A stretch of DNA of 34,322 nt, from the IMG/VR virus record IMGVR_UViG_2675903330_000002. The stretch is one strand, 5' to 3'. Numbering within the stretch: the first letter of the stretch is position 1; the number at the start of each line of letters is the position of its first letter. A program made the translations under genes and the position numbers. Under the pieces are notes generated by a model. The model had not been told where the DNA came from. It worked only from the letters and a program-made list of their open reading frames with translations, and did no database searches. Shown one piece after another: positions 584-34,322 of this stretch. This DNA comes from a virus. Its lineage: Duplodnaviria; Heunggongvirae; Uroviricota; Caudoviricetes.

Positions 584-1597
584 TTACTCTACTGTGGACA
601 CTGTGTGGACACTCTCGGCTTCAGTACCACCTCTTAGCGGATTAAGAGAAATGGCGTCCTGAAGGTACTCTGGCGCAAAATGAGCGTAAACCATAGTTTG
701 CTCAATCCGCGTGTGACCTAGTATCCGTTGTAGCGTGATAATACTTCCTCCATTAATCATGAAATGAGTGGCAAAGCTGTGCCTTAGTGCATGTGTGGCT
801 TGCCCCGTTGGCAAATCCGGTTTTATTGCTTTCATTGTTCGTCTGAAGCGAGGGTAATCAGCATCAGGGAATAAAAAACCTCGTTTGTTATCCGCGATCA
901 TTTTGGCAACAGCCTCTGAGATCGGGACGGTGCGTGGTTTGTTTGTTTTCGTTTTAACAAACGTGACGCGGTTATGGATGATATTTTCTGCTTTCAAACG
1001 AGCTGCTTCTCCCCAACGTGCTCCTGTACTCAGGCAAAGAATCGCAATCTTTTTGTTGTCGCCGTCAAGTGCTGCAAGCAGTAAGGCAATTTCTTCCTGT
1101 GTGAGATAGCCTGTTTCTGGTTTTTCCTCCTTAAGCCTCTTTGTCCCTCTGATAGGGTGCTCACCAAAGAATAACTCCGCTTCAATCAGGGCTGTAAACA
1201 TGCCGCTAATACATGTTAAATCACGATTGATACTCGAAGGTTTAATACCCTGACTTCTTCGGGTGGCGCAGTACTGGCTGATAAGGGATTTCGTAATTTG
1301 AAATGCGCATGGGTCATTCGTTATTTTTGTGAAGATTTCAATTTTTCCAAGATTAGATTTCCCATGCTCTTCGTGTTTACCCTTTAAATCCCACCAGATC
1401 TGTGTCAGCTCCGACAGACGCCGCTTGTCTGTTGGTTTTGATAGCCATTCTTTATTGTGGTGGTTGTACAACGTGTATTTCTCGAAAGCGACAGCTTCGC
1501 TTTTCTTATCAAACTTCCTACGGATGCGTTTTCCATTACGTCCAGTAGGGCGGATGTCCACTTCATATCGACCATCATCGAGTTTTTTGATTGCCAT
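584..1597 (-). CDS. int: tyrosine integrase (P2 Int-like), 337 aa
   Basis: 337-aa ORF adjacent to the att core. C-terminal catalytic region shows ...ATHALRHSFATHF...LGHTRIEQTMVYAHF. ATG at 1597 is preceded by GGAGGG. Confidence 0.9.
   Translation of the reverse strand: MAIKKLDDGRYEVDIRPTGRNGKRIRRKFDKKSEAVAFEKYTLYNHHNKEWLSKPTDKRRLSELTQIWWDLKGKHEEHGKSNLGKIEIFTKITNDPCAFQITKSLISQYCATRRSQGIKPSSINRDLTCISGMFTALIEAELFFGEHPIRGTKRLKEEKPETGYLTQEEIALLLAALDGDNKKIAILCLSTGARWGEAARLKAENIIHNRVTFVKTKTNKPRTVPISEAVAKMIADNKRGFLFPDADYPRFRRTMKAIKPDLPTGQATHALRHSFATHFMINGGSIITLQRILGHTRIEQTMVYAHFAPEYLQDAISLNPLRGGTEAESVHTVSTVE
593..611. promoter_or_regulatory. candidate Int arm-type binding sites (TGTGGACA x2, direct, about 11 bp apart)
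   Basis: Tandem TGTGGACA at 593-600 and 604-611 inside the 3' end of int. A matching pair TGTGGTCA/TGTGGACG occurs at 32731-32750 on the other arm. Confidence 0.4.
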
Positions 1598-3894: not shown

Positions 3895-4166
3895 GTATTC
3901 GTATTGAAATTGGCGAACGTTATGTCGTTACCAGTGACAGCTTTCAGTTTATTCTCCACGAGAAAAAGAGAGCGGAAAGCGGTAAAAACGCCGGTCAGGA
4001 ATGGCTGTCGGTGGTTGGTTATTACCCGAAATTAAGCCAGCTCGTTTCCGGCCTGATGCATCACGATATTCTGACCGGAAGCGCAAAGTCTTTTGCTGAT
4101 TTAAACGTGCAGGTTGAGCAACTCAGCAAGCGTTGTTCAGAGGCTTTTGGCTCATATGGCCGTTAA
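3891..4166 (+). CDS. P2 orf83-like hypothetical protein (91 aa)
   Basis: ORF with ATG at 3891 overlapping the upstream stop. Its 3' end overlaps the start of A. Confidence 0.55.
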   Translation: MSIRIEIGERYVVTSDSFQFILHEKKRAESGKNAGQEWLSVVGYYPKLSQLVSGLMHHDILTGSAKSFADLNVQVEQLSKRCSEAFGSYGR

Positions 4167-6432
4167 AGCCTCCGGGCGTTTTGTCCCTCCGTCAGCATTT
4201 GCCGCAGGCACCGGTAAGGCGTTTACCGGTGCTTATGCATGGAACGCGCCACGCGAGGCTGTCGGGCGCGAAAGACCCCTTACACGTGACGAGATGCGTC
4301 AGGTGCAAGGTGTTTTATCCACGATTAACCGCCTGCCTTACTTTTTGCGCTCGCTGTTTACTTCACGCTATGACTACATCCGGCGCAATAAAAGCCCGGT
4401 GCACGGGTTTTATTTTCTCACATCCACTTTTCAGCGTCGTTTATGGCCGCGCATTGAGCGTGTGAATCAGCGCCATGAAATGAACACCGACGCGTCGTTG
4501 CTGTTTCTGGCAGAGCGTGACCATTATGCGCGTCTGCCGGGGATGAATGACAAGGAGCTGAAAAAGTTTGCCGCCCGTATCTCATCGCAGCTTTTCATGA
4601 TGTATGAGGAACTCTGCGATGCCTGGGTGGATGCGCATGGCGAAAAAGAATCGCTGTTTACGGATGAGGCGCAGGCTCACCTCTATGGTCATGTTGCTGG
4701 TGCTGCACGTGCTTTCAATATTTCCCCTCTCTACTGGAAAAAATACCGTAAAGGGCAGATGACCACGAGGCAGGCATATTCTGCCATTGCCCGTCTGTTT
4801 AACGATGAGTGGTGGACCCATCAGCTTAAAGGCCAGCGTATGCGCTGGCATGAGGCGTTACTGATTGCTGTCGGGGAGGTCAATAAAGACCGTTCTCCTT
4901 ATGCCAGTAAACATGCCATTCGTGATGTGCGTGCACGCCGCCAGGCAAATCTGGAATTTCTTAAATCGTGTGATCTCGAAAACAGGGAAACCGGCGAGCG
5001 CATCGACCTTATCAGTAAGGTGATGGGCAGTATTTCTAATCCTGAAATTCGCCGGATGGAGCTGATGAACACCATTGCCGGTATTGAGCGTTACGCCGCA
5101 GCAGAGGGTGATGTGGGGATGTTTATCACGCTGACCGCGCCGTCAAAGTATCACCCGACACGTCAGGTCGGAAAAGGCGAAAGTAAAACCGTCCAGCTTA
5201 ATCACGGCTGGAATGATGAGGCATTTAATCCAAAGGATGCGCAGCGATATCTCTGCCGTATCTGGAGCCTGATGCGCACGGCATTCAAGGATAATGATTT
5301 ACAGGTCTACGGTTTGCGTGTCGTCGAGCCACACCACGACGGAACGCCGCACTGGCATATGATGCTTTTTTGTAATCCACGCCAGCGTAACCAGATTATC
5401 GAAATCATGCGTCGCTACGCGCTCAAAGAGGATGGAGACGAAAGAGGAGCTGCGCGAAACCGTTTTCAGGCAATACACCTTAACCGGGGCGGTGCTGCGG
5501 GATATATCGCGAAATACATTTCAAAAAACATCGACGGCTATGCACTGGATGGTCAGCTCGATAACGATACCGGCAGGCCGCTGAAAGACACTGCCGCGGC
5601 TGTTACCGCATGGGCGTCAACGTGGCGCATTCCGCAATTTAAAACGGTTGGCCTGCCGACAATGGGGGCTTACCGTGAACTACGCAAATTGCCTCGCGGC
5701 GTCAGCATTGCTGATGAGTTTGACGAACGCGTCGAGGCTGCACGCGCTGCCGCAGACAGTGGCGATTTTGCGCTGTATATCAGCGCGCAGGGTGGGGCAA
5801 ATGTCCCGCGCGATTGTCAGACTGTCAGGGTCGCCCGTAGCCCGTCGGATGACGTTAACGAGTACGAGGAAGAGGTCGAGAGAGTGGTCGGCATTTACGC
5901 GCCGCATCTCGGCGCGCGTCATATTCATATCACCAGAACGACGGACTGGCGCATTGTGCCGAAAGTTCCGGTCGTTCAGCCTTTGACTTTAAAAAGCGGC
6001 ATCGCCGCGCCTCGGAGTCCTGTCAATAACTGTGGAAAGCTCACCGGTGGTGATACTTCGTTACCGGCTCCCACACCTTCTGAGCACGCCGCAGCAGTGC
6101 TTAATCTGGTAGATGACGGTGTTATCGAATGGAATGACCAGGAGGTCGTGAGGGCGCTCAGAGGTGCATTAAAACACGGTCTGAGAAGACCAAACCGTCA
6201 GCAAAGAAACGGAAGCCCGTTAAAACCGCATGAAATAGCGCCATCGGCCAGACTGACCCGGTCGGAACGAATGCAAATTACCCGTATCCGCGTTGACCTT
6301 GCTCAGAACGGTATCAGGCCACAGCGATGGGAGCTTGAGGCGCTGGCGCGTGGCGCGACCGTAAATTATGACGGGGAAAAATTCACGTATCCGGTCGCTG
6401 ATGAGTGGCCGGGATTCTCAACAAACATATAA
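4156..6432 (+). CDS. A: replication initiation endonuclease A (rolling-circle, HUH-type)
   Basis: About 758-aa ORF in the P2 gpA position, with an H-x-H metal-binding motif (HWHMMLF) and nearby Tyr residues. The track ORF starts at a TTG at 4114; the first ATG is at 4156. Confidence 0.85.
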   Translation: MAVKASGRFVPPSAFAAGTGKAFTGAYAWNAPREAVGRERPLTRDEMRQVQGVLSTINRLPYFLRSLFTSRYDYIRRNKSPVHGFYFLTSTFQRRLWPRIERVNQRHEMNTDASLLFLAERDHYARLPGMNDKELKKFAARISSQLFMMYEELCDAWVDAHGEKESLFTDEAQAHLYGHVAGAARAFNISPLYWKKYRKGQMTTRQAYSAIARLFNDEWWTHQLKGQRMRWHEALLIAVGEVNKDRSPYASKHAIRDVRARRQANLEFLKSCDLENRETGERIDLISKVMGSISNPEIRRMELMNTIAGIERYAAAEGDVGMFITLTAPSKYHPTRQVGKGESKTVQLNHGWNDEAFNPKDAQRYLCRIWSLMRTAFKDNDLQVYGLRVVEPHHDGTPHWHMMLFCNPRQRNQIIEIMRRYALKEDGDERGAARNRFQAIHLNRGGAAGYIAKYISKNIDGYALDGQLDNDTGRPLKDTAAAVTAWASTWRIPQFKTVGLPTMGAYRELRKLPRGVSIADEFDERVEAARAAADSGDFALYISAQGGANVPRDCQTVRVARSPSDDVNEYEEEVERVVGIYAPHLGARHIHITRTTDWRIVPKVPVVQPLTLKSGIAAPRSPVNNCGKLTGGDTSLPAPTPSEHAAAVLNLVDDGVIEWNDQEVVRALRGALKHGLRRPNRQQRNGSPLKPHEIAPSARLTRSERMQITRIRVDLAQNGIRPQRWELEALARGATVNYDGEKFTYPVADEWPGFSTNI

Positions 6433-6535
6433 AAATGATTGAAATGGTTGATTTTGCTTCCACTTGATGGTTGGTATCAGCAACTGATGGATCATGCGGA
6501 ACTGCGTGGCGATCTTGCTTTGGAAGCATGTCATT

Positions 6536-6754
6536 ATGACTAATGCATACATTACTAGCTATGCGTCCGGTTCCGCCATTGTACTCGTGCAAGAGTCTGC
6601 GGCTGATGGCTATTGTTTACAAATTATGGTCAAAGAGAATCTGACCCTCTACGAGTTGGTCGGAGGGACTGAGATCGTCAGTGATAACTGCAGCCGTATG
6701 GGAGAAATCAATAATCCCAACCGTCCATATTTCTACCTTCACGCGTGCCCATAA
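6536..6754 (+). CDS. hypothetical small protein (orphan ORF between A and the RT gene)
   Basis: ORF only, with no clear Shine-Dalgarno sequence. It occupies the region where P2 has orf91. May be non-coding. Confidence 0.2.
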   Translation: MTNAYITSYASGSAIVLVQESAADGYCLQIMVKENLTLYELVGGTEIVSDNCSRMGEINNPNRPYFYLHACP

Positions 6755-6780
6755 TCTGTCACCACGTTGACCATAGAAAA

Positions 6781-6825
6781 CCCCGTCGACGCTGAAACTC
6801 GCTTTCAGTGCTGGCGGGGGTGAAC
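6781..6825 (-). terminator. possible rho-independent terminator for the minus-strand RT gene
   Basis: CCCCG (6781-6785) pairs with CGGGG (6815-6819), with an inner CTGAAA/TTTCAG stem. On the minus strand the hairpin is followed by TTTTCT. Confidence 0.3.
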
Positions 6826-6919
6826 AACGAGCTTGCGAGGCGTTAGGGATGTCGAAATTTCATATGACTGTTCGCTTTAATGCTTAACGAAGTCATGTTG
6901 AGTTAATAACATTGTTTCG

Positions 6920-8464
6920 TTAAGCGCTGTGTTCCTTGTCGAATAAGTTCACTTCTTCTGGTGTAATATCATTATCCATTTCTTCGAATGCATCTAAATC
7001 CACAATTTTTGTTTTTTTCAAAATTGATAGTATTTTCTGTTTGTTTTTACTTTTGGCTGAGCCCGGAATCCACTCTACATCCCACAGGCCATCAATGGTA
7101 AATGTTTTTTTTCCCTTGAGTTCATCATTTATGCGTTGACATAGGGCTGTTTTGTAATCGCCTTCCCATTGTGTGTGTATCTTCCCTTGAACTCGTTGAA
7201 ACCAAATATCTAACATTTCAGTATTTGGTTGTTTACCTAGTTTACAATGAAGTTGTTGTAACTTGCCAAATTTGAGTTCATCGTCGTCATAAAGGAAGGT
7301 CAAGAGTTTTGCGAAAATAGCCATTCCCACTGGGTAGGTGGTTGGGTTTTTAGCCATGATGCTTGAAATAATTCCAAGCATTGCATCTAGTTGATGCCCA
7401 CTATTTGTGATCTTTTTCTTCCTAAATAATTTTCGCAAGAAATCATTTAAATATCTAACTGTAATTTTGGAGTTTTGATGTTTTAAAGAAAATAAATATA
7501 TTGCATACAACATTTTCTGTAGGGAGTTGAACGACCTTTCTATAATATATTCTTTTTTTGCTGATTTAAGGGAGTGAAGAATGATGTCGTCATGTAGTTC
7601 TGTTTTTCTTGAGTTTAAATCAAGCCCAAACTCACCTAAGACCTCAACCAAACACTTTGAGATTTTGTCCAAATCATCTTTACTGCTTGAAAATATTCGA
7701 TAATCATCTCTGTAGCGAACTACTTTGTAATCCGTTATTTTTTGCTCTTCAGTTTTTTTTCTTAGCTGTAAATCAATTTCGCCTAAAATTAATTCGGCAA
7801 ATGTATCCATCAACGTACTACCCAATGGTATTCCGTTTGTCTGATTACTCATCATCATCTGGATATGAGTGTCAATCAATCGTCCTGGGTTATTGTTATT
7901 TTCTTTCTTTTTGGCCTCTTCTTTTGAGATGAATACCCATTCAAAGCTATGAGTGTAAATAGAAGGGTAGAAGTTTGAAATATCTGTGCTGAACATGAAC
8001 TCATACTCAAGAGCCAATGAAAGACTTTTTTGTTCAAAATCTTCCCACCAGTTTAAAACAGATGCAGCTACGTTTGAGGTGTTCTTTTTGCTCACTGGGG
8101 TACTTGAGCATAAAAAAAGATCATTAGACTCAAACTCTCTAAATTTATTCTTTATAGCCTTCCAGTTGGAAGGGGATGTAATAAGTTTACAAAAATACAC
8201 GTAGTACAGAGGATTAATTAGTGTTATTCGTCGCCAGCTATATAAGCCATCTTTGCTGACTAAAACCTCGTAATTTATATTCTTCCCCATCAATGACTTG
8301 GAGTCAGGTTGGAAGTTGATTTTACCTTCATCTATCGCGGAGTTGATTTCTTCAAGCAAGGAAGAAAAATCGACATAACTGGGTAGCTCCAGAGTAGTGT
8401 ATGAATCATGCTGCAGAAAATACTTAAGCGCTCTACCAGTAGTTAATTCATAAATCTTTTTCAT
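6920..8464 (-). CDS. Abi-type reverse transcriptase (AbiA/AbiK/Abi-P2-like), 515 aa, in the P2 tin/old slot
   Basis: RT palm motifs readable in the translation: RRITLINP (motif 1), FSTDISNFYPSIY (motif A), NGIPLGSTLMDTFAEL (motif B), VRYRDDYRIF (YxDD, motif C), GLDLNSRKTEL (motif D/E). An extra C-terminal domain of about 175 aa follows. Start taken at MKKIYEL (8464); the track's longer form starts at 8590. The gene is AT-rich relative to the phage backbone. Confidence 0.75.
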   Translation of the reverse strand: MKKIYELTTGRALKYFLQHDSYTTLELPSYVDFSSLLEEINSAIDEGKINFQPDSKSLMGKNINYEVLVSKDGLYSWRRITLINPLYYVYFCKLITSPSNWKAIKNKFREFESNDLFLCSSTPVSKKNTSNVAASVLNWWEDFEQKSLSLALEYEFMFSTDISNFYPSIYTHSFEWVFISKEEAKKKENNNNPGRLIDTHIQMMMSNQTNGIPLGSTLMDTFAELILGEIDLQLRKKTEEQKITDYKVVRYRDDYRIFSSSKDDLDKISKCLVEVLGEFGLDLNSRKTELHDDIILHSLKSAKKEYIIERSFNSLQKMLYAIYLFSLKHQNSKITVRYLNDFLRKLFRKKKITNSGHQLDAMLGIISSIMAKNPTTYPVGMAIFAKLLTFLYDDDELKFGKLQQLHCKLGKQPNTEMLDIWFQRVQGKIHTQWEGDYKTALCQRINDELKGKKTFTIDGLWDVEWIPGSAKSKNKQKILSILKKTKIVDLDAFEEMDNDITPEEVNLFDKEHSA

Positions 8465-8670
8465 AATTAGTGATTTCTTCTTAAGTTGCGCACAAATAAC
8501 TACCTGTTTTCTATCATGATAACGATGCGAATGCGAGCAATTCAGGAAGTGCATTACTCTGCATCGAAGCGCACGCAAGTCAGAGAACAATAACTGCCTG
8601 GCGACATCAGGACTGGCGCGCTAGTTGAGTGGTCATGCAACTGCATTAAAACCGCCCCATGAAGCGGGCG

Positions 8671-8689
8671 GGCGAGGCGGGGGAAGCAC
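8671..8689. other. cos site (19-nt cohesive-end sequence GGCGAGGCGGGGGAAGCAC)
   Basis: Matches the P2/186 cohesive-end sequence as I recall it, with at most one difference. Lies between the A-side genes and Q as in P2, within a GC-rich dyad region. Confidence 0.7.
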
Positions 8690-8859
8690 TGCGCGCTAAA
8701 CGATGTCGCTGGCTTGCAGTTACCCGGTTGAAATTCTTATTTTTTTGTTGCATTATTCTTAGCGCACCAGCGATTCGCTTGGTATGCGGCAGTCAACAAC
8801 ATTAAATTGTCAGTTTTTGCTTTTACAAAAAAGCGTCCACTATGGACCTATCAGCGAGG

Positions 8860-9000
8860 CCCCACCGTCGTCAACTACGATGGTGCCGTAGCCGACGACA
8901 TTACGTACGGTCGAAAGATAGCAGAGGCTGTTGCTGACAATTGTTGATGTAAGCATCTCTGCTGTTCCACCCTTGAGTATGGGAAGACCGTACGTAACTT
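8860..9000 (+). ncRNA. candidate structured non-coding RNA upstream of the retron-type RT (possible msr/msd-like element)
   Basis: Perfect 12-bp inverted repeat TTACGTACGGTC (8901-8912) and GACCGTACGTAA (8986-8997), the latter 17 nt before the RT start codon. A compound hairpin GTCGTC-A-CTACG-loop-CGTAG-CC-GACGAC lies at 8867-8899, and an inner AGCAGAG/CTCTGCT stem at 8920-8963. Boundaries and strand are not established. Confidence 0.3.
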
Positions 9001-9014
9001 TGAATTTGAATGGT

Positions 9015-10205
9015 ATGTTTATGGATAAATTTAAACCATACAGCAAATCCAATGCTCCTATCACAACACTTGAAAAGTTGTCAAAGGCTTTATCGATTTC
9101 TGTTGAAGAGCTTAAAGCTATTGCAGAATTACCATTAGATGAGAAATATACTCTAAAAGAAATTCCCAAAATTGACGGAAGCAAACGGATTGTCTACTCC
9201 CTGCATCCTAAAATGAGATTATTACAGAGTAGAATTAATAAACGTATCTTTAAGGAATTGGTTGTTTTTCCTTCATTTTTGTTTGGTTCAGTTCCCAGTA
9301 AAAATGATGTTTTAAATTCTAATGTCAAACGTGACTATGTTTCATGTGCAAAGGCTCATTGTGGAGCAAAAACAGTTCTCAAGGTGGATATAAGTAATTT
9401 TTTCGATAATATCCATAGAGATCTGGTTAGGAGCGTGTTTGAGGAGATATTGCATATTAAGGATGAGGCTCTTGAATACTTGGTGGATATATGTACTAAG
9501 GATGATTTTGTCGTACAGGGGGCCTTAACATCAAGCTATATAGCAACTTTGTGTTTATTCGCTGTTGAAGGGGATGTGGTAAGACGTGCGCAGAGGAAAG
9601 GACTTGTTTATACGCGTTTGGTAGATGATATTACCGTGTCATCTAAAATAAGTAATTATGATTTTTCTCAAATGCAAAGCCATATAGAGAGGATGCTTTC
9701 TGAGCATGACTTGCCGATAAATAAGCGCAAAACTAAAATATTTCACTGTTCATCTGAACCTATAAAAGTACATGGTTTAAGAGTTGACTATGACTCACCT
9801 CGACTACCATCCGATGAAGTCAAAAGAATCAGGGCATCTATACATAATTTGAAATTACTGGCGGCAAAAAATAACACAAAAACAAGTGTTGCATACAGAA
9901 AAGAATTCAATAGATGTATGGGGAGAGTGAATAAGCTTGGCCGTGTTGCGCATGAAAAATATGAATCATTCAAGAAACAGTTGCAGGCAATAAAACCGAT
10001 GCCATCTAAAAGAGATGTTGCTGTGATTGATGCAGCTATAAAAAGTTTAGAGTTGTCGTATTCGAAAGGTAATCAAAATAAACATTGGTATAAAAGAAAA
10101 TATGATTTGACGAGATATAAGATGATTATTCTTACTCGCTCTGAATCATTTAAAGAAAAACTGGAGTGTTTTAAATCTAGATTGGCATCTTTAAAACCAT
10201 TATGA
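9015..10205 (+). CDS. retron-type reverse transcriptase (about 396 aa)
   Basis: Motifs align in order with retron RTs such as Ec86 (from memory): SKALSISVEEL (N-terminal), RIVYSLHP (motif 1), AKAHCGA (NAxxH-like), KVDISNFFDNI (motif A), VVQGALTSSYIATL (motif B), YTRLVDDITVS (motif C), INKRKTKI, KVHGLRV (VTG-like, Thr replaced by His), IRASIHNL. Start taken at the first ATG (9015); the track ORF begins at a TTG at 8931. Confidence 0.75.
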   Translation: MFMDKFKPYSKSNAPITTLEKLSKALSISVEELKAIAELPLDEKYTLKEIPKIDGSKRIVYSLHPKMRLLQSRINKRIFKELVVFPSFLFGSVPSKNDVLNSNVKRDYVSCAKAHCGAKTVLKVDISNFFDNIHRDLVRSVFEEILHIKDEALEYLVDICTKDDFVVQGALTSSYIATLCLFAVEGDVVRRAQRKGLVYTRLVDDITVSSKISNYDFSQMQSHIERMLSEHDLPINKRKTKIFHCSSEPIKVHGLRVDYDSPRLPSDEVKRIRASIHNLKLLAAKNNTKTSVAYRKEFNRCMGRVNKLGRVAHEKYESFKKQLQAIKPMPSKRDVAVIDAAIKSLELSYSKGNQNKHWYKRKYDLTRYKMIILTRSESFKEKLECFKSRLASLKPL

Positions 10206-10909
10206 ATGCAAATATTAGACTTCTCAAATATATTGTCGGTGTGTCGTCAGCTCTTTTTTTGATTTTTTCGCTAATTTCTCTTTTTGAAACTATTCAGAAT
10301 GAAAAGCTATATGAGCGTGATATATGCTTCGATAGCCAGTGCTTAAAATTTTTTGCGGAAAAAACATCTGGTATAGTAATGTATTTTCAGGCGTTTGGAT
10401 GGCTTATAACAACTTTTGTTACCGTTTTTGGTGTTATGATTGCTTTGATGACATATAACGCTGGAGTTAAAAATAATAATAATAGTAATTACACTAGTCA
10501 TCTGACGATGTTTAGAGAATTTGCAAGTGCTGAGTTAACTAAAAGAAGTAGCATCTATCCAGAGAAAGTTAATTTTTTTAGATGGTATAGGGTTATGTTC
10601 CCTGAAGCGCAAGGCGGTGATATATCTGTTTCGAGAGATTATCTAGAAATAATATCTAGAATCAAATGTGTTATTGAGGAAGCCAATGCACATATTACAG
10701 AGGAAAATAAAGACTATAAATATAAAACTCATCAGAGAAAAATGATGGCTGTTTTGGATGAAATCGGTATATCGATTAGTAATGGGCCCAAAAATATTTT
10801 TATTGAGGTTGAGAGTCAAATTTTGGATTATATCGATACTATTAATTTGTCATTTTGTCACTCCTCATCAGTGATAGAATTAAGTAGAGTAAAAAGGAAG
10901 TATATATAG
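10202..10909 (+). CDS. two-transmembrane-helix protein, putative retron effector (235 aa)
   Basis: ATGA overlap with the RT stop indicates translational coupling. Two hydrophobic helices (LLKYIVGVSSALFLIFSLISLF and GIVMYFQAFGWLITTFVTVFGVMIALMTY) precede a soluble domain of about 150 aa with no motif I recognise. Confidence 0.65.
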   Translation: MNANIRLLKYIVGVSSALFLIFSLISLFETIQNEKLYERDICFDSQCLKFFAEKTSGIVMYFQAFGWLITTFVTVFGVMIALMTYNAGVKNNNNSNYTSHLTMFREFASAELTKRSSIYPEKVNFFRWYRVMFPEAQGGDISVSRDYLEIISRIKCVIEEANAHITEENKDYKYKTHQRKMMAVLDEIGISISNGPKNIFIEVESQILDYIDTINLSFCHSSSVIELSRVKRKYI

Positions 10910-10911
10910 TT

Positions 10912-10940
10912 AAGTTGGCGGGATTGCATTCCGCCAACTT
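10912..10940. terminator. hairpin terminator between convergent effector gene and Q
   Basis: 10-bp perfect stem AAGTTGGCGG/CCGCCAACTT with a 9-nt loop, followed by TTATATATTTA. Lies in the 42-bp gap between two convergent stop codons. Confidence 0.5.
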
Positions 10941-10951
10941 TATATATTTAC

Positions 10952-11971
10952 TTATAAGTTATAATCAAGGAATTTTATGACTTCCATATCTAACCATTCA
11001 TTTATTGACTTTATTCTCTCCTGTAATGGAATGAGTTCATTGCGGACAAAGACCTTTGCCACTTTTTCAATATCTCCTAGTGACCCGACATTCTCCGGCT
11101 TACCGCCCATCAACTGAAAGGGGATGCGGTGTGCGTCCAGGAGATCTGCGGCGCTGACTTTTTTGATATTAAAAAAATCGTCCTTCGTCGCCACTTCACT
11201 GAGGGGGATAATTTTAATGCCGTCGGCTTTCCCCTGTGGGGCATAGAGAAACAGGTTTTTAAAGTTGTTGCGGCCTTTCGACTTAACCATGTTTTCGCGA
11301 AGCATTTCGATATCGTTGCGATCCTGCACGGCATCGGTGACATACATGATGTATCCGGCATGAGCGCCGTTTTCGTAATACTTGCGGCGGAACAGCGTGG
11401 CCGACTCATTCAGCCAGGCAGAGTTAAGGGCGCTGAGATATTCCGGCAGGCCGTACAGCTCCTGATTGATATCCGGCTCCAGCAGGTGAAACACGGAGCC
11501 GGGCGCGAAGGCTGTCGGCTCGTTGAAGGACGGCACCCACCAGTAAACATCCTCCTCCACGCCACGGCGGGTATATTTTGCCGGTGAGGTTTCCAGTCTG
11601 ATGACCTTACCGGTGGTGCTGTAACGCTTTTCCAGAAACGCATTACCGAACACCAGAAAATCCAGCACAAAGCGGCTGAAATCCTGCTGGGACAGCCACG
11701 GGTGCGGGATAAACGTTGAAGCCAGAATATTGCGTTTAACGTAAATCGGTGAGCTGTGATGCACGGCAGCACGCAGGCTTTTTGCCAGACCGGTAAAGCT
11801 GACCGGTGGCTCATACCATCTGCCGTTACTGATGCACTCGACGTAATCCAGAATATCACGGCGGTCGAGTACCGGCACCGGCTCACCAAAGGTGAATGCC
11901 TCCATTTTCGGGGCGCTGGCAGTCATTGTTTTCACCGCTGGCTGCGGTGTTTTCCCTTTTTTCTTACTCAT
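10952..11971 (-). CDS. Q: portal protein (gpQ-like), 339 aa
   Basis: Position and size as P2 Q. Start overlaps the stop of P (ATGA). Confidence 0.85.
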   Translation of the reverse strand: MSKKKGKTPQPAVKTMTASAPKMEAFTFGEPVPVLDRRDILDYVECISNGRWYEPPVSFTGLAKSLRAAVHHSSPIYVKRNILASTFIPHPWLSQQDFSRFVLDFLVFGNAFLEKRYSTTGKVIRLETSPAKYTRRGVEEDVYWWVPSFNEPTAFAPGSVFHLLEPDINQELYGLPEYLSALNSAWLNESATLFRRKYYENGAHAGYIMYVTDAVQDRNDIEMLRENMVKSKGRNNFKNLFLYAPQGKADGIKIIPLSEVATKDDFFNIKKVSAADLLDAHRIPFQLMGGKPENVGSLGDIEKVAKVFVRNELIPLQERIKSINEWLDMEVIKFLDYNL

Positions 11972-13743
11972 CAGTAAAACTCCAGAATGGTGGATGTCAG
12001 CGGGGTGCTGATACCGGCGGTGAGTGGCTCATTTAACAGGGCGTGCATGGTCGCCCAGGCGAGATCGGCGTGGCTGGCTTCCTCGCTGCGGCTGGCCTCA
12101 TAGGTGGCGCTGCGTCCGCTGCTGGTCATGGTCTTGCGGATAGCCATAAACGAGCTGGTGATGTCGGTGGCGCTGACGTCATATTCCAGACAGCCACGGC
12201 GGATAACGTCTTTTGCCTTGAGCACCATTGCGGTTTTCATTTCCGGCGTGTAGCGGATATCGCGCGCGGCGGGATAGAACGAGCGCACGAGCTGGAACAC
12301 GCCGACACCGAGGCCGGTGGCATCAATCCCGATGTATTCAACGTTATATTTTTCGGTGAGTTTGCGGATGGATTCCGCCTGGGTGGCAAAGTCCATGCCT
12401 TTCCACTGGTGACGCTCAAGTATTCTGAATTTGCCACCGGCCACCACCGGCGGTGCCAGTACCACGCATCCGGCGCTGTCGCCACGGTGTGACGGGTCGT
12501 AACCAATCCATACCGGGCGGGAGCCGAACGGATTTGCGGCAAACGGCGCATAGTCTTCCCATTCTTCCAGCGTGTCGACCATGCAACGTTGCAGCTCCTC
12601 GAACGGGAACACCGACGCCTTGTCGTCAACAAATTCACACATGAACAGGTTTTTAAAATCGTCGGCGCTGTTTTCACGTTTGAGCTGCTCAATGTCGAAC
12701 AGCGTGCAGCCGCCTTTCAGGGCGTCCTCAATGGTGACAATCTGCCGCCACTGGCCGTCCGCACAGAGAAGACCTCCGGCAAGGGCGTTATGACTGACGT
12801 CGATTTCCACGCGTTCGGCGGCGCTGGCGCGTCCCCGGTTGAACAGTTCACCCGACCAGAACGGGTAGGCGTCGTGCGCCAGCGTGGACGGGGTGGAGAA
12901 ATAGGTCGAGCGCAGGTGACTCTGTGAGGCCATACCTGATGCCACCTTACGCAGTACCTGAAAATTCGGGATCCAGAAAATCTCGTCGACGTACAGGTCG
13001 CCGTTATGGCTCTGTGCGGTGTTGGAGTTGGTGCCGAGAAAAATCAGTTTTGCGCCGTTATTGCCCAGGACAATCGGGTCACCGGTCAGGTCAACGTCAA
13101 CCAGCCGGGCAAAGGCGATGATGTATTCGCGGAACACATACGCCTGCGTTTTACTGGCCGACAGAAAAATCTGGTTATGACCGGTTTTCAGGGCGCGCAG
13201 CAGCGCCTCGCGGGAAAAATAAAACGTCGCGCCAATCTGGCGGGATTTCAGGATATCGCGGATGCGGTGCTCAAGCCCGGCGCGATACCAGTGCAACTGA
13301 TATTCGAAAGACTGCTCAAAGAAAATCTGCTCCAGCTTTTCGATGGCCTCGTCACTGAAAAAATTCTTTTTCGGTTTGCGACGCCCGCCTTTGTTGCGGT
13401 TAGCGACGTTCGGATTAAGGTCTGCCTCGTTGCCGGTCTGACTGTAGCGGTTGACCCGTGCCAGTCGTTCAATCTGACGTCCCAGCAGGTCAATTTCCTT
13501 GAAGTCACCGCCGGTTTTCTGCGGTTTGATGATGAGCTGGGTCAGCCGCGCTTCCAGACTCATTTCGACACGGCTGATGGGGGCAACGCTGTCCCAGCCG
13601 TCGCGCTGTTTCCAGCTCTGCACCGTCGGGCGTTTCATCTGCAACATGGCGGCAATCTGCGGCACGGAAAACCCCTGCCAGTACAGCAGCGCCGCCTGAC
13701 GACGCGGGTCGTGTAAAAGAGTGGTGTCTGTGGTGATGGTCAT
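11971..13743 (-). CDS. P: terminase large (ATPase) subunit (gpP-like), about 590 aa
   Basis: Large ORF divergent from O. Start taken at the internal ATG (13743) preceded by GAGGT, which gives the P2-like size; the track ORF extends to 13773. Confidence 0.85.
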   Translation of the reverse strand: MTITTDTTLLHDPRRQAALLYWQGFSVPQIAAMLQMKRPTVQSWKQRDGWDSVAPISRVEMSLEARLTQLIIKPQKTGGDFKEIDLLGRQIERLARVNRYSQTGNEADLNPNVANRNKGGRRKPKKNFFSDEAIEKLEQIFFEQSFEYQLHWYRAGLEHRIRDILKSRQIGATFYFSREALLRALKTGHNQIFLSASKTQAYVFREYIIAFARLVDVDLTGDPIVLGNNGAKLIFLGTNSNTAQSHNGDLYVDEIFWIPNFQVLRKVASGMASQSHLRSTYFSTPSTLAHDAYPFWSGELFNRGRASAAERVEIDVSHNALAGGLLCADGQWRQIVTIEDALKGGCTLFDIEQLKRENSADDFKNLFMCEFVDDKASVFPFEELQRCMVDTLEEWEDYAPFAANPFGSRPVWIGYDPSHRGDSAGCVVLAPPVVAGGKFRILERHQWKGMDFATQAESIRKLTEKYNVEYIGIDATGLGVGVFQLVRSFYPAARDIRYTPEMKTAMVLKAKDVIRRGCLEYDVSATDITSSFMAIRKTMTSSGRSATYEASRSEEASHADLAWATMHALLNEPLTAGISTPLTSTILEFY

Positions 13744-23898: not shown

Positions 23899-24342
23899 AT
23901 GAATAAAGTTAAAAGTGTTTACAGCCCGTCCGAAAATGCAATCTACAACGCAGCGCTATATGAAAGTTATATCAAGGAGGGGACATGGCCGCAGGATGGT
24001 ATTGAAATCAGCGATGAGGATGCTGTCAGATTTAATGGGGGAAATAAGCCAACAGGAAAAATGCTGGGAATGGTTTCAGGGACCCTTGCATGGGTTGATG
24101 AGCCGCCGCTTTCACCAGAACAGAAAATATCAGATGCAGAAAACATGAAAGCCACATTTCGTGCAAAAGCTGACAGTGAAATATCCTGGCGTCAGGATGC
24201 TGTTGATGCTGGTATCGCAACTGATGAAGAAACTTCAACTCTCACCCAATGGAAGAAATACCGTGTGCTGCTGATGCGTGTTGATACGTCAACAGCACCC
24301 GATATTGAATGGCCTACGCCTCCGGCAGCTCAGGCCAGATGA
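23899..24342 (+). CDS. tail fibre assembly protein (G/U-like), ON orientation, 147 aa
   Basis: Follows the tail fibre gene. Its C-terminus (...VDTSTAPDIEWPTPP) resembles that of the convergent paralogue. Confidence 0.75.
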   Translation: MNKVKSVYSPSENAIYNAALYESYIKEGTWPQDGIEISDEDAVRFNGGNKPTGKMLGMVSGTLAWVDEPPLSPEQKISDAENMKATFRAKADSEISWRQDAVDAGIATDEETSTLTQWKKYRVLLMRVDTSTAPDIEWPTPPAAQAR

Positions 24343-24907
24343 CATCCGGCGCGGTGCTGGTATCTGTTACCGTCACCGCGTCAATGTAATCCAGCACGGC
24401 GTTAAGTCGGGTTGTTTCTGCCTGCGTCAGCTTCCGTCCGGCCTGTAATTTCAGTTGAATCAGACTGATGGAAGCCATTGCAGCATCAATCAGCGACTGG
24501 CGCTGTGCTTCTGCTGCGTCTACTGCGGCACTATGCTGTGCCTCAGTATCTGTCACCCATTTCTCACCATCCCATTTATCGTATGGCGTTAACGGTGAAA
24601 GCGTGACATAACCGTCTTTGATGGCACCGATATAATCCACTGTAACAGCTGCGCCATTTTCGATTGAGTAAACAGTCTCATTGCGGTGGTCTTCTTCATG
24701 GCTCCATCCCTTACCCGTAAATACTGCCACTTTCCCCGGAATGTATTCGCCCGGGTCAATACCAGTGGAACAGGCGGGCATACTTACGCCAGTATTAATA
24801 TATTCATCAGACCAGCCCGTATACTCAGATGTTTCAGCATCATAATAAAAACAACGCATATCGCCCGGCACTGTAGCCAGCCCATTTTCATCAAAAACAG
24901 GTTTCAT
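24314..24907 (-). CDS. alternative tail fibre assembly protein (U'-like), OFF orientation, 197 aa
   Basis: Convergent with and overlapping the previous gene at 24314-24342. C-terminal motif ...TDTSTAPDVIWPELP. Confidence 0.7.
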   Translation of the reverse strand: MKPVFDENGLATVPGDMRCFYYDAETSEYTGWSDEYINTGVSMPACSTGIDPGEYIPGKVAVFTGKGWSHEEDHRNETVYSIENGAAVTVDYIGAIKDGYVTLSPLTPYDKWDGEKWVTDTEAQHSAAVDAAEAQRQSLIDAAMASISLIQLKLQAGRKLTQAETTRLNAVLDYIDAVTVTDTSTAPDVIWPELPEA

Positions 24908-25404
24908 TATTTAGCCCTCACCAGAAAGTTAAATGCAATATTTCGCGGTCTGACAGCAACAAAATTCACACCATCACCCACAGAGTTACTGGTGAAATTA
25001 AATCGTGAAAATCCTGGCTGATTTCCGGCGATGCCATCATGAAAGTTAATTGCGTGTCCCGCACCTTCGCCTATATTCCCGGCAAACTGAGAAAAGTTTG
25101 TAGCTGCCTGCCAGCTTAATAATTCGCGACCACCGTCTGCACCTCGCCCGTCATCCCAGATACGAATGAAATCACCGCGGGCTTCAGGTAATACCAGCGA
25201 AGGAAATACTTTCGCCAGCACAGGATAATCAGTGGCAGAGAATTTCGCGCCGCTGAACTTCAAAAACACCATACTGGACCAGCTGTCGATTACAGTATTT
25301 GGCATTGCAGCGGACGGCCAGAAGAACGGAACGCCAATAGCTGGAGCACCTTCTCCCAAACCAACGTTTATGAAAATGCAGAGATAATGGCTAACTGGCA
25401 TCAT
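24907..25404 (-). CDS. alternative tail-fibre C-terminal cassette (H'v), promoterless in this orientation
   Basis: The ORF's 5' end runs through the right crossover site and encodes ...NVGLGEGAP, matching the LGLGE junction in H. It has no independent start context. A functional product is expected only after inversion. Confidence 0.6.
   Translation of the reverse strand: MMPVSHYLCIFINVGLGEGAPAIGVPFFWPSAAMPNTVIDSWSSMVFLKFSGAKFSATDYPVLAKVFPSLVLPEARGDFIRIWDDGRGADGGRELLSWQAATNFSQFAGNIGEGAGHAINFHDGIAGNQPGFSRFNFTSNSVGDGVNFVAVRPRNIAFNFLVRAK
25351..25376. repeat. right crossover site for DNA invertase (hix/gix-like, 26 bp)
   Basis: TTCTCCCAAACC-AA-CGTTTATGAAAA lies immediately upstream of the invertase gene and resembles Hin/Gin/Cin crossover sites. 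Confidence 0.75.
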
Positions 25405-25431
25405 CCCCGGTTTTTATTCAGGGGGTTGATC

Positions 25432-26025
25432 ATGCTTATTGGCTATGTACGCGTGTCAACAAATGACCAGAACACCGATTTGCAACGTAGTGCGCTGAAC
25501 TGCGCGGGATGTGAGCGGATTTTTGAGGATAAAATCAGCGGCACTAAGTCCGACAGACCGGGGCTGAAAAAACTGCTCAGGACACTATCGGCAGGAGACA
25601 CGCTGGTAGTCTGGAAGCTGGACAGGCTGGGGCGTAGTATGCGGCATCTGGTCATTCTGGTTGAGGAGCTGCGCGAACGCGGCGTTAATTTTCGCAGCCT
25701 GACAGATGCTATTGATACCAGCACGCCGATGGGGCGTTTTTTCTTTCATGTGATGGGTGCCCTGGCTGAAATGGAGCGAGAACTCATTGTCGAGCGGACA
25801 CGCGCCGGACTGGAAGCGGCCAGAGCCAAAGGGCGTATTGGTGGCAGACGTCCGAAGCTCACCGCGAGTGAGTGGGAACAGGCAGGACGGTTGCTGGCTG
25901 CGGGTGAATCACGTCAACGCGTGGCGCTGATTTTTGATATTGGCCTGTCCACGCTCTATAAAAAATTCCCCTCATCAGCGGCAAAGAATAAATTGTGTCA
26001 TCCCTTAGCCAACCGGGACAAATAG
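25432..26025 (+). CDS. serine recombinase, Gin/Hin/Cin/Pin-family DNA invertase (about 197 aa)
   Basis: N-terminus MLIGYVRVSTNDQNTDLQR contains the catalytic Ser of the resolvase/invertase fold. C-terminal HTH ...GESRQRVALIFDIGLSTLYKKFP. ATG at 25432 preceded by AGGGGG. Occupies the slot where P2 has Z/fun. Confidence 0.9.
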   Translation: MLIGYVRVSTNDQNTDLQRSALNCAGCERIFEDKISGTKSDRPGLKKLLRTLSAGDTLVVWKLDRLGRSMRHLVILVEELRERGVNFRSLTDAIDTSTPMGRFFFHVMGALAEMERELIVERTRAGLEAARAKGRIGGRRPKLTASEWEQAGRLLAAGESRQRVALIFDIGLSTLYKKFPSSAAKNKLCHPLANRDK

Positions 26026-32960: not shown

Positions 32961-34322
32961 TCACTTACCGTGTGGGTTACGCGTGGTTTCCCCGGAGAAA
33001 TTACGCATCAGCAGAGCGTAATTGAGCTCAAGATCCTGCGGGACCGGGAGCCACACAGTATAACCATCGCCTGGTGCGACCGGCATCGCTTCACCTTTGG
33101 CGTTTTCCATGTGCTCAAGGGTAAAGTTAATGTTGCCTTGCGGCGTCATCAGCTCAAGGCTGTCGCCAACGGAGAATTTATTTTTCACCGCTACCGCCGC
33201 GAGGTCCCCCTTGCGCTCACCGGTAAACTCACCAACAAACTGCTGGCGGTCAGAAACTGAATAACCGTATTCGTAGTTCTGATAATCGTCGTGAGTATGA
33301 CGACGCAGGAAACCTTCGGTATAGCCACGATGCGCCAGACCTTCCAGAGTTTCCAGCAGGCTGGTATCGAACGGTTTGCCCGCAGCGGCGTCATCGATAG
33401 CTTTACGGTAAACCTGTGCGGTGCGTGCGCAATAGTAGAAAGATTTAGTACGGCCTTCGATTTTCAGCGAATGCACGCCCATTTTGGTCAGGCGTTCTAC
33501 ATGGGCGATGGCGCGCAGATCTTTCGAGTTCATGATGTAAGTGCCGTGCTCATCTTCAAACGCGGTCATATACTCGCCCGGACGCTGGGCTTCTTCGATC
33601 ATAAACACTTTGTCGGTTGGCGCGCCGATACCCAGCGTCGGCTCAACATTTTGCACCGGAATCGGCTCGTACTTGTGTACGATGTTGCCAACGTCATCTT
33701 CTTTCCCTTCCTGGACGTTGTACTCCCAGCGGCAGGCGTTGGTGCAGGTACCCTGGTTCGGATCGCGCTTGTTGATATAGCCAGAGAGCAGGCAGCGACC
33801 GGAGTAGGCCATGCACAGTGCGCCGTGAACGAAGATCTCGATCTCCATATCCGGCACCTGATTGCGGATCTCTTCAATCTCTTCCAGCGACAGCTCGCGA
33901 GAGAGGATCACGCGGGTCAGGCCCATTTGCTGCCAGAATTTCACCGTCGCCCAGTTTACGGCGTTAGCCTGCACCGAGAGGTGGATCGGCATTTCAGGGA
34001 AGTGCTCACGCACCAGCATAATCAGCCCTGGATCGGACATAATCAGCGCATCCGGCCCCATTTCCACCACCGGTTTCAGGTCACGGATAAAGGTTTTCAG
34101 CTTGGCGTTGTGCGGTGCAATGTTGACCACGACATAAAACTTTTTCCCCAGCGCGTGGGCTTCATTGATGCCGAGCTGAAGATTTTCGTGGTTGAATTCG
34201 TTGTTGCGCACACGCAGGGAGTAACGCGGCTGGCCCGCATAAACAGCATCTGCGCCATAAGCGAAAGCGTAACGCATATTTTTCAGCGTTCCCGCCGGGG
34301 AAAGGAGTTCCGGTTTAAACAT
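32961..34322 (-). CDS. yegQ: peptidase-U32-family protein (YegQ-like), 453 aa, right chromosomal flank
   Basis: Complete ORF with the U32 signature E-x-F-x-H-G-A-L-C-x-A-Y-S-G-R-C (EIFVHGALCMAYSGRC). In E. coli K-12, yegQ lies next to the P2-remnant gene ogrK, which fits ogr being the adjacent phage gene here. Confidence 0.7.
   Translation of the reverse strand: MFKPELLSPAGTLKNMRYAFAYGADAVYAGQPRYSLRVRNNEFNHENLQLGINEAHALGKKFYVVVNIAPHNAKLKTFIRDLKPVVEMGPDALIMSDPGLIMLVREHFPEMPIHLSVQANAVNWATVKFWQQMGLTRVILSRELSLEEIEEIRNQVPDMEIEIFVHGALCMAYSGRCLLSGYINKRDPNQGTCTNACRWEYNVQEGKEDDVGNIVHKYEPIPVQNVEPTLGIGAPTDKVFMIEEAQRPGEYMTAFEDEHGTYIMNSKDLRAIAHVERLTKMGVHSLKIEGRTKSFYYCARTAQVYRKAIDDAAAGKPFDTSLLETLEGLAHRGYTEGFLRRHTHDDYQNYEYGYSVSDRQQFVGEFTGERKGDLAAVAVKNKFSVGDSLELMTPQGNINFTLEHMENAKGEAMPVAPGDGYTVWLPVPQDLELNYALLMRNFSGETTRNPHGK

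What the first reader, a model, noticed from the sequence alone, without database searches (positions are those of the whole stretch)
10202..10909. Putative effector: two TM helices plus an unrecognised soluble domain
The protein downstream of the retron-type RT has two clear membrane helices within its first 85 residues, then about 150 residues of Asn/Lys/Glu-rich sequence with no catalytic motif I can recognise. If it is the toxic module, the killing mechanism is not evident from sequence.
Basis: inference. Interest (0 to 1): 0.55.

Follow-up and report, generated by a model that had tools for sequence, protein, structure and literature searches.

The report
Retron Ec48 membrane effector, already known
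This gene is the already-described two-transmembrane effector of the E. coli anti-phage retron Ec48 (Retron-Eco6), carried here on a P2-like prophage, so it is a known system rather than a new one, although how the protein kills the cell is still unsolved.

Summary
Window 10202-10909(+) encodes a 235-aa protein with two hydrophobic helices (about residues 10-29 and 62-85) and a roughly 150-residue soluble part. Its ATG overlaps the stop codon of a retron RT (ATGA).

It is not new. It matches NCBIfam NF038235 "retron Ec48 family effector membrane protein" (226.7 bits, cutoff 65) and PADLOC 2TM_IV (4e-85). The exact sequence carries the UniRef name TM48_ECOLX. The upstream 399 nt differ at 2 positions from the Ec48 construct of Millman et al. 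2020.

Published work on this system shows:
- defence needs RT catalysis and residues 3-85 of this protein;
- the effector alone is not toxic (Palka 2022).

New here:
- A high-confidence AF2 model (pLDDT 95.8) shows an all-alpha protein in which TM2 continues into the soluble domain.
- A C-x4-C motif in the inter-TM loop is family-wide.
- A nearly invariant polar set (E111, Y129, Y147, H177, Q178, E204) sits in the soluble domain.

Verdict: already known, with low interest as a discovery. The killing mechanism is still open.

The parts
8728..8756 (+). Sigma-70-like promoter candidate (TTGAAA-17-CATTAT) about 50 nt upstream of the ncRNA
   Evidence: It matches 9 of 12 consensus positions. The number of such sites in the region is no higher than in shuffles, so only its position supports it. 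It lies inside the fragment that Millman et al. cloned with the native promoter.
8805..8942 (+). Retron ncRNA (msr-msd). The a1 arm is 8805-8813 and the a2 arm 8934-8942. The first msr hairpin is 8819-8834 and the second 8835-8847. The msd template lies in roughly 8858-8933. The branching G is probably G8813 (inferred from the conserved 'AG' at the end of a1).
   Evidence: Inverted repeat I7. MFE fold z = -3.05. In 9 type IV loci, a1/a2 is 98.6% paired with 4 of 8 pairs changed on both sides. Hairpin 1 is 100% paired with 3 of 6 pairs compensatory. Pairing falls to 30-47% when partners are slid. The sequence has no difference from the published Ec48 construct across this stretch. The exact msd ends and the branch point were not verified.
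8943..9014 (+). Conserved leader between a2 and the likely RT start. It contains 8986-8997 (GACCGTACGTAA), which is complementary to msd 8901-8912.
   Evidence: It is nearly invariant at the nucleotide level across loci whose effectors are only ~40% identical. The 12-bp long-range helix is 99.1% paired, with one pair changed on both sides (UA in 5 loci, GC in 4). Its function is unknown.
8979..10205 (+). Retron reverse transcriptase, type IV (Ec48 RT). ATG 8979 gives the published numbering (YVDD Asp216/217). ATG 9015 or 9021 is the more likely true start.
   Evidence: PADLOC RT_IV 1.4e-176, with the profile starting at residue 36 of the 424-aa ORF. Pfam RVT_1 5e-31. VDD numbering compared with D216A/D217A. 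RefSeq annotation of phage pro147 starts at the position equivalent to 9015.
10202..10909 (+). Retron Ec48 2TM effector (the finding), 235 aa
   Evidence: NCBIfam NF038235 equivalog, 226.7 bits against a cutoff of 65. PADLOC 2TM_IV 4.1e-85, covering 3-235 of the protein and 5-235 of the profile. The exact sequence is named TM48_ECOLX, 'Retron Ec48 transmembrane protein'. RefSeq annotation in 100%-identical E. coli genomes.
10229..10288 (+). TM helix 1 (residues about 10-29)
   Evidence: Hydropathy and AF2 helix 3-33.
10325..10342 (+). C42-x4-C47 motif in the loop between the TM helices, inferred to be periplasmic
   Evidence: C42 is conserved in 97% and C47 in 96% of 141 family members. The spacing of 5 is fixed in 133 of 141. 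Loop K+R density is 0.087 (net charge -0.9) against 0.167 (net +1.65) for the N-terminus, which favours an N-in / loop-out / C-in topology.
10385..10456 (+). TM helix 2 (residues about 62-85), continuous with a long helix that reaches residue 112
   Evidence: Hydropathy and AF2 helix 56-112.
10457..10906 (+). All-alpha C-terminal domain (residues 86-235), inferred to be cytoplasmic. Nearly invariant residues: F104, E111, Y129, G139, Y147, N162, H177, Q178, G189, E204, F218, Y234.
   Evidence: Conservation. AF2 pLDDT is 94-98 over this part. There is no significant structural neighbour.
10912..10940 (+). Intrinsic-terminator-like hairpin (13-bp stem, then a T-rich tail) between the effector and the convergent portal gene

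Best explanation
The ORF is the effector of retron Ec48 (Retron-Eco6, type IV retron). The system sits between the cos site and the portal gene of a P2-like prophage.

Anatomy:
- The system has three parts: an msr-msd ncRNA (8805-8942), a retron RT (ending at 10205), and this translationally coupled 235-aa inner-membrane protein.
- I infer an N-in / C-in hairpin topology. The short loop carrying a conserved C-x4-C faces the periplasm.
- TM2 runs on as one long helix into a roughly 150-residue all-alpha cytoplasmic domain.

How it works:
- In uninfected cells the RT makes msDNA and the effector stays silent.
- When a phage inhibits RecBCD (lambda Gam, T7 gp5.9), the RT-msDNA module changes state and switches the effector on.
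- The effector then compromises the inner membrane and the infected cell stops growing or dies before phage are released (abortive infection).

Shown in the literature for this same sequence:
- defence requires RT catalysis and the TM segment;
- Gam and gp5.9 are the triggers;
- the system is not tolerated in recB-deleted cells;
- the effector alone is not toxic.

Inferred:
- the topology;
- that the cytoplasmic domain is the receiver contacting the RT-msDNA complex;
- that killing is by oligomerisation or pore formation.
For: Identity:
- NF038235 scores 226.7 bits against a cutoff of 65.
- PADLOC 2TM_IV gives 4.1e-85 and RT_IV 1.4e-176.
- The exact sequence is named TM48_ECOLX.
- Window 8542-8940 equals the first 399 nt of the Millman pAA10 Ec48 insert, with 2 mismatches, both upstream of the ncRNA.
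- The published numbering fits this sequence: D216/D217 match the VDD of the ORF counted from ATG 8979, and residues 3-85 are the hydrophobic region found here.
- 100%-identical loci in RefSeq E. coli are annotated the same way, and 57 of 5426 complete genomes carry at least 80% of the query.
- Phage pro147 carries the locus at 99.9% identity.

Conserved system:
- An RT ORF lies directly upstream and overlaps the effector start in all 8 other loci examined; PADLOC confirmed RT_IV in the three tested (L002-L004), and the other five carry Pfam RVT_1.
- The ncRNA helices covary.

Function:
- Millman et al. 2020, Stokar-Avihail et al. 2022, Zhang et al. 2025 and Palka et al. 2022.

Structure and topology:
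- AF2 pLDDT 95.8, pTM 0.80.
- Charge distribution and the C-x4-C motif.
Against: - Nothing argues against the identification.
- On mechanism, no tool result here shows membrane localisation, oligomerisation or pore formation.
- The held preprint only hypothesises a CBASS-like pore.
- My recollection that the final Cell paper and UniProt report membrane permeabilisation within about 15 min of lambda infection could not be checked in the held library.
- The nearly invariant polar residues in the soluble domain (E111, H177, Q178, E204) would also fit a ligand-binding or catalytic site.
- How RecBCD status reaches the retron is still described as undetermined in 2026.
Confidence: 0.88

Rival explanations
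1. Classical tripartite toxin-antitoxin retron, as in Retron-Sen2/St85. The 2TM protein would be constitutively toxic and be held in check by direct binding of RT-msDNA. Phage action on the msDNA would release it.
For: This is the general model for several retrons. The effector and RT are translationally coupled, which would give the fixed stoichiometry a toxin-antitoxin pair needs.
Against: Palka et al. 2022 found that the Eco6 accessory protein expressed alone was not toxic, unlike the Eco4, Eco9 and Sen2 accessory proteins. An inactive RT abolishes defence but is not reported to kill cells.
Confidence: 0.12
2. The TM hairpin is only a membrane anchor. The conserved all-alpha cytoplasmic domain would be the active part, acting as an enzyme or ligand-gated module on a cytoplasmic or membrane-proximal target, and killing would not be by pore formation.
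For: Nearly invariant polar residues lie in the soluble domain (E111, Y129, Y147, N162, H177, Q178, E204) across members with a median ~27% identity to the window protein (20% at the lowest). Outside the Cys pair and A81/Y85, the TM helices are poorly conserved in sequence. The soluble domain is as confidently folded as an enzyme domain would be.
Confidence: 0.15
3. A prophage membrane protein unrelated to the retron, such as a holin-like or superinfection-exclusion protein, that happens to sit next to the RT in a P2 cargo hotspot.
For: It lies in the variable cargo region of a P2-like prophage next to another defence gene, AbiP2. Small 2TM proteins are common among holins and Sie proteins.
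Against: The same RT-to-2TM pair, with overlapping stop and start, occurs in 8 of 8 loci from other genera. Several are chromosomal and not in P2 prophages. The family HMM is curated as the Ec48 effector. Deletion of its TM region abolishes retron defence.
Confidence: 0.02

Closest known systems
Retron Ec48 / Retron-Eco6 (type IV retron) effector, Swiss-Prot TM48_ECOLX; NCBIfam NF038235; Pfam PF28197 Retron_Ec48_antiviral; PADLOC 2TM_IV
   Same: The protein sequence is the same one that carries the TM48_ECOLX name. The RT, ncRNA and gene order are the same. The upstream DNA differs at 2 of 399 nt from the experimentally tested construct.
   Different: Nothing of substance differs. The two substitutions (8639 T>A and 8683 A>G, the latter inside the P2 cos sequence) lie upstream of the ncRNA.
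Retron-Sen1 (Se72, type V) and type VI retrons (Retron-Vpa2), the other clade-3 retrons
   Same: The RTs are related (PADLOC RT_V 1e-62 and RT_VI 5e-54 on this RT). Triggers are tied to RecBCD or phage recombination: Gam triggers Eco6 and Sen1, while Vpa2 is triggered mainly by lambda Beta plus Exo.
   Different: The effectors are unrelated. Type V has a cold-shock-domain protein. Type VI has an HTH protein plus a small toxin that is translationally repressed within a hybrid RNA.
Transmembrane effectors of CBASS and other abortive-infection systems
   Same: The logic is the same: a small membrane-spanning protein is held inactive until a cytoplasmic sensor reports infection, then causes loss of membrane integrity. 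Millman et al. drew this analogy.
   Different: No sequence or fold relationship was detected. The activator here would be an RT-msDNA complex and not a cyclic nucleotide.
P2 Old (OLD-family ATPase-TOPRIM abortive-infection protein)
   Same: It occupies the same variable region of P2-like phages (between gene A and the portal gene). It has the same trigger logic: lethal in recB cells and triggered by lambda Gam and T7 gp5.9.
   Different: It is an entirely different protein and effector chemistry, a nuclease/tRNase rather than a membrane protein.

Membership tests
Retron Ec48 family effector membrane protein (NF038235 / PADLOC 2TM_IV / PF28197) | Full-length match to the curated family HMM above its cutoff | tested here: met
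   NF038235 equivalog scores 226.7 bits against a cutoff of 65, E 2.3e-67. PADLOC 2TM_IV gives 4.1e-85, covering 3-235 of the protein and 5-235 of the profile. Homologues carry the precomputed Pfam family PF28197 Retron_Ec48_antiviral.
Retron Ec48 family effector membrane protein (NF038235 / PADLOC 2TM_IV / PF28197) | Two N-terminal transmembrane helices followed by a ~150-aa domain without a known fold | tested here: met
   Hydropathy peaks at 10-28 and 64-83. AF2 gives helices 3-33 and 56-112. There are no significant fold neighbours.
Type IV retron system (Mestre et al. 2020) | Effector gene just downstream of, or overlapping, a clade-3 type IV retron RT | tested here: met
   RT_IV 1.4e-176. 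The stop and start overlap as ATGA at 10202-10205. The definition is in PMC7736814.
Type IV retron system (Mestre et al. 2020) | msr-msd ncRNA with a1/a2 inverted repeats upstream of the RT | tested here: met
   a1 at 8805-8813 and a2 at 8934-8942. Covariation across 9 loci: 4 of 8 a1/a2 pairs and 3 of 6 hairpin pairs changed on both sides. Rfam has no model that matches.
Retron Ec48 itself (the experimentally studied system) | Sequence identity with the published element | tested here: met
   397 of 399 nt are identical to the visible part of the pAA10 insert. The protein carries the TM48_ECOLX name. Only the first ~400 nt of the insert are held, so the coding part was compared indirectly.
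Retron Ec48 itself (the experimentally studied system) | Anti-phage defence by abortive infection triggered by RecBCD inhibition; production of a ~48-nt msDNA | not testable with these tools
   Literature only.
Tripartite toxin-antitoxin retrons (Sen2/St85-type) | Effector alone is toxic and is neutralised by RT plus msDNA | not testable with these tools
   Palka et al. 2022 report that the Eco6 accessory protein alone is not toxic. This argues against membership but was not tested here.
HPt (histidine phosphotransfer) four-helix bundle | Hpt profile match, with the conserved His in an HPt-type motif | tested here: not met

The most novel reading that the evidence does not exclude
The cytoplasmic domain of the Ec48 effector would be a fold with no solved relative. 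Its invariant polar cluster (E111, Y129, Y147, N162, H177-Q178, E204) would be a receptor or catalytic site that reads the state of the RT-msDNA complex, so killing would not be simple pore formation.

In addition, the conserved leader between a2 and the RT start pairs with the msd template (8901-8912 with 8986-8997). This would put expression of the RT-effector operon under msDNA-dependent control, analogous to what was recently found for the sister type VI retrons.
Probability: 0.15. Interest if true: 0.5.

Novelty: already known. Interest (0 to 1): 0.1.

Why it matters
As a discovery it does not matter, because this is the textbook Ec48 retron. Its practical value is annotation. The window is a P2-like prophage that carries two RT-based defence systems, AbiP2 and retron Ec48, on either side of cos.

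The confident model, the topology inference and the list of invariant residues given here are concrete targets for mutagenesis.

Tried and rejected
- Rfam scan of 6000-12000 at E up to 1 gave no hits, so no curated model covers this ncRNA.
- The local Pfam copy gave only noise for the effector. Across 141 family members the only recurrent hit was DUF2207_C (26 members, best E 4e-4), a membrane-protein region that I take to reflect TM composition.
- PDB sequence searches with 12- and 141-sequence profiles found nothing meaningful. The best hit was a designed coiled coil aligned to the TM region.
- The afdb50 library was unavailable.
- The original msDNA-Ec48 paper (PMC179752) is not held, and Palka's supplement holds no Eco6 RT-DNA sequence. 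The exact msd ends and the branching G are therefore inferred.
- Three literature searches for a statement on membrane permeabilisation by Ec48 found none in the held library.
- The positive-inside rule on the single sequence was ambiguous, so I evaluated it on the family instead.

Full report
**What is there.**
Window 10202-10909(+) is an ATG-initiated ORF of 235 codons. Its start overlaps the stop of the upstream 424-codon ORF (ttATGAatg).
- Kyte-Doolittle analysis finds two hydrophobic stretches and nothing else. One peaks at residues 10-28 and the other at 64-83.
- The rest, residues 86-235, is hydrophilic. Ile (17), Ser (16), Glu (13), Asn (12) and Lys (11) are the commonest residues, and there is an Asn run at 91-94.
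- The gene is 31.5% GC in a 51% GC window.

**Identification.**
- PADLOC matches the protein end to end to 2TM_IV (4.1e-85) and the upstream ORF to RT_IV (1.4e-176).
- NCBIfam matches the equivalog model NF038235, 'retron Ec48 family effector membrane protein', at 226.7 bits against a curated cutoff of 65.
It carries the UniRef name 'Retron Ec48 transmembrane protein ... RepID=TM48_ECOLX'.
- The supplement of Millman et al. 2020 shows the first ~400 nt of their Ec48 construct pAA10. These equal window 8542-8940 with two substitutions (8639, 8683), both upstream of the ncRNA.
- The published mutations fit this sequence. D216A/D217A are the YVDD aspartates counted from ATG 8979, and 'delta 3-85' removes the two TM helices.
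- Megablast finds the 2.36-kb cassette at 99.9-100% identity in the best-matching RefSeq E. coli genomes, annotated the same way, and 57 of 5426 complete genomes hold at least 80% of it. It is also in Peduovirus pro147.
- This is retron Ec48 (Retron-Eco6), the type IV retron of Mestre et al. 2020.

**Context.**
The window is a complete P2-like prophage.
- The integrase is at 584-1597(-) and gene A at 4114-6432.
- The portal, terminase and capsid genes run from 10952 onward.
- A host U32 peptidase gene lies at 32961-34322.
- Between gene A and the portal gene lie an AbiP2 reverse transcriptase (6920-8590, minus strand; PADLOC 4.7e-160), the P2 cos sequence (8671-8689), and then the retron.
- Phage pro147 has the same arrangement.
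- This variable region is where P2 itself carries old, another abortive system triggered by loss of RecBCD.

**The rest of the system.**
- The ncRNA is bounded by a1 (8805-8813) and a2 (8934-8942).
- I collected eight other type IV loci whose effectors are 38-68% identical: Serratia, Buttiauxella, Xenorhabdus, Kosakonia, Photorhabdus, Proteus and two from unnamed assemblies.
- All eight have an RT ORF directly upstream that overlaps the effector start. PADLOC confirmed RT_IV in the three tested.
- On their alignment, a1/a2 is 98.6% paired with 4 of 8 pairs changed on both sides. The first msr hairpin is 100% paired with 3 of 6 pairs compensatory. Overall pairing falls from 91.7% to 30-47% when partners are slid by 1-3 columns.
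- A terminator-like hairpin follows the effector at 10912-10940.

**What the literature says about function (same sequence).**
- Ec48 defends against phages of three families.
- Defence needs RT catalysis and residues 3-85 of the effector.
- Escape mutants of lambda and T7 map to the RecBCD inhibitors Gam and gp5.9. Expression of either kills Ec48-carrying cells.
- The system cannot be established in recB-deleted cells.
- Gam alone is a full trigger.
- The RT-ncRNA module is thought to be the RecBCD sensor, because the related Se72 retron shares the trigger but has an unrelated effector.
- Over-expression of the Eco6 accessory protein alone is not toxic, unlike the accessory proteins of Eco4, Eco9 and Sen2. 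The simple toxin-antitoxin picture therefore does not fit, and the effector appears to need activation.
- As of mid-2026, how RecBCD status is surveyed is still described as undetermined.
- From memory, the final Cell paper and the UniProt entry report membrane permeabilisation within about 15 min of lambda infection. I could not verify this in the held library.

**What I could add on the protein.**
- A profile search of 1.84 billion representatives finds 233 clusters (105 at E of 1e-30 or lower). Almost all are 205-275 aa and match full length, so the family has one architecture.
- In a 141-member alignment (median ~27% identity to the window protein) the nearly invariant positions are C42, C47, A81, Y85, F104, E111, Y129, G139, Y147, N162, H177, Q178, G189, E204, F218 and Y234.
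- The two cysteines sit in the loop between the TM helices with a fixed C-x4-C spacing in 133 of 141 members.
- That loop is net negative (K+R density 0.087), whereas the N-terminus is net positive (0.167). This supports N-in / loop-periplasmic / C-in.
- With the deep alignment AlphaFold2 gives pLDDT 95.8 and pTM 0.80. The protein is all-alpha, with helices at 3-33, 45-54, 56-112, 125-132, 145-166, 174-188 and 197-218. TM2 continues without a break into the soluble domain, a natural lever for transmitting a cytoplasmic signal to the membrane.
- Foldseek against the PDB finds nothing (best E 1.1).
- No PDB chain is related by sequence.

**Most likely mechanism.**
The protein is an inner-membrane, C-in hairpin whose cytoplasmic helical domain receives a signal from the RT-msDNA complex when phage proteins disable RecBCD. 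Activation then compromises the membrane, probably through oligomerisation of the TM hairpins, and aborts the infection.
- Identification as the Ec48 effector: about 0.97.
- Membrane damage as the killing step: about 0.6-0.7.
- The main alternative is an enzymatic or ligand-binding role for the conserved soluble domain, with the TM hairpin acting as an anchor: about 0.15.

**Verdict.**
It is already known and of low interest as a finding.

Noticed in passing
window 8943-9014, pairing 8901-8912 with 8986-8997: The ~70 nt between a2 and the likely RT start are almost invariant at the nucleotide level across type IV loci whose effectors are only ~40% identical. They contain a perfect 12-nt complement of the msd template (TTACGTACGGTC / GACCGTACGTAA). 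Across 9 loci this long-range helix is 99.1% paired, with one pair changed on both sides (UA in 5, GC in 4). The segment has the same sequence as part of the predicted msDNA, so reverse transcription would free it. This may be msDNA-dependent control of RT and effector expression, reminiscent of type VI retrons. It also implies that ATG 8979, the basis of the published residue numbering, is probably not the real RT start.
   Followed up: partly
window 6920-8590 (-): A second, unrelated defence reverse transcriptase of the AbiP2 type (PADLOC 4.7e-160). Its likely true start is the ATG at residue 43 of the ORF, which gives 514 aa as annotated in phage pro147. Two RT-based systems therefore flank the cos site. 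The first 67 nt of the query (8590-8656) match the end of the P2-EC58 record AM157368 at 100%.
   Followed up: partly
window 8671-8689: P2 cohesive-end sequence GGCGAGGCGGGGGAAGCAC, lying between AbiP2 and the retron. It differs by one base (8683 A>G) from the sequence in the Millman Ec48 construct. In the packaged linear genome the two defence cassettes would therefore sit at opposite ends.
   Followed up: no
window 24314-26025: A serine invertase (Resolvase + HTH_7, 25387-26025, plus strand) lies next to oppositely oriented ORFs: a tail-fibre assembly ORF (24314-24907, minus strand) and a 165-aa ORF (24907-25404, minus strand). They sit downstream of the tail fibre gene. This looks like an invertible host-range segment at the position of the P2 Z/fun hotspot.
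   Followed up: no
window 584-1597 (-) and 32961-34322 (-): The phage integrase is at the left end and a host U32 peptidase gene at the right end. From memory the latter is yegQ-like, the site of the cryptic P2 remnant in E. coli K-12. The window therefore spans essentially the whole prophage.
   Followed up: no
L002 154-2205, L003 95-2146, L007 1-720: In Buttiauxella, Xenorhabdus and Photorhabdus the type IV retron lies directly downstream of a large helicase gene. In L002 this is a Hachiman HamB helicase (PADLOC 2.6e-281); the same-sized L003 ORF was not scanned, and the L007 gene carries DEAD/ResIII helicase domains. These loci are in chromosomal defence islands and not in P2 prophages.
   Followed up: no
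window 10325-10342 (effector residues 42-47): The C-x4-C motif in the inter-TM loop is the most conserved feature of the whole family after F104 (96-97% of 141 members, fixed spacing in 133). I do not know of it being discussed. It could be a periplasmic disulfide or a metal or redox site.
   Followed up: partly
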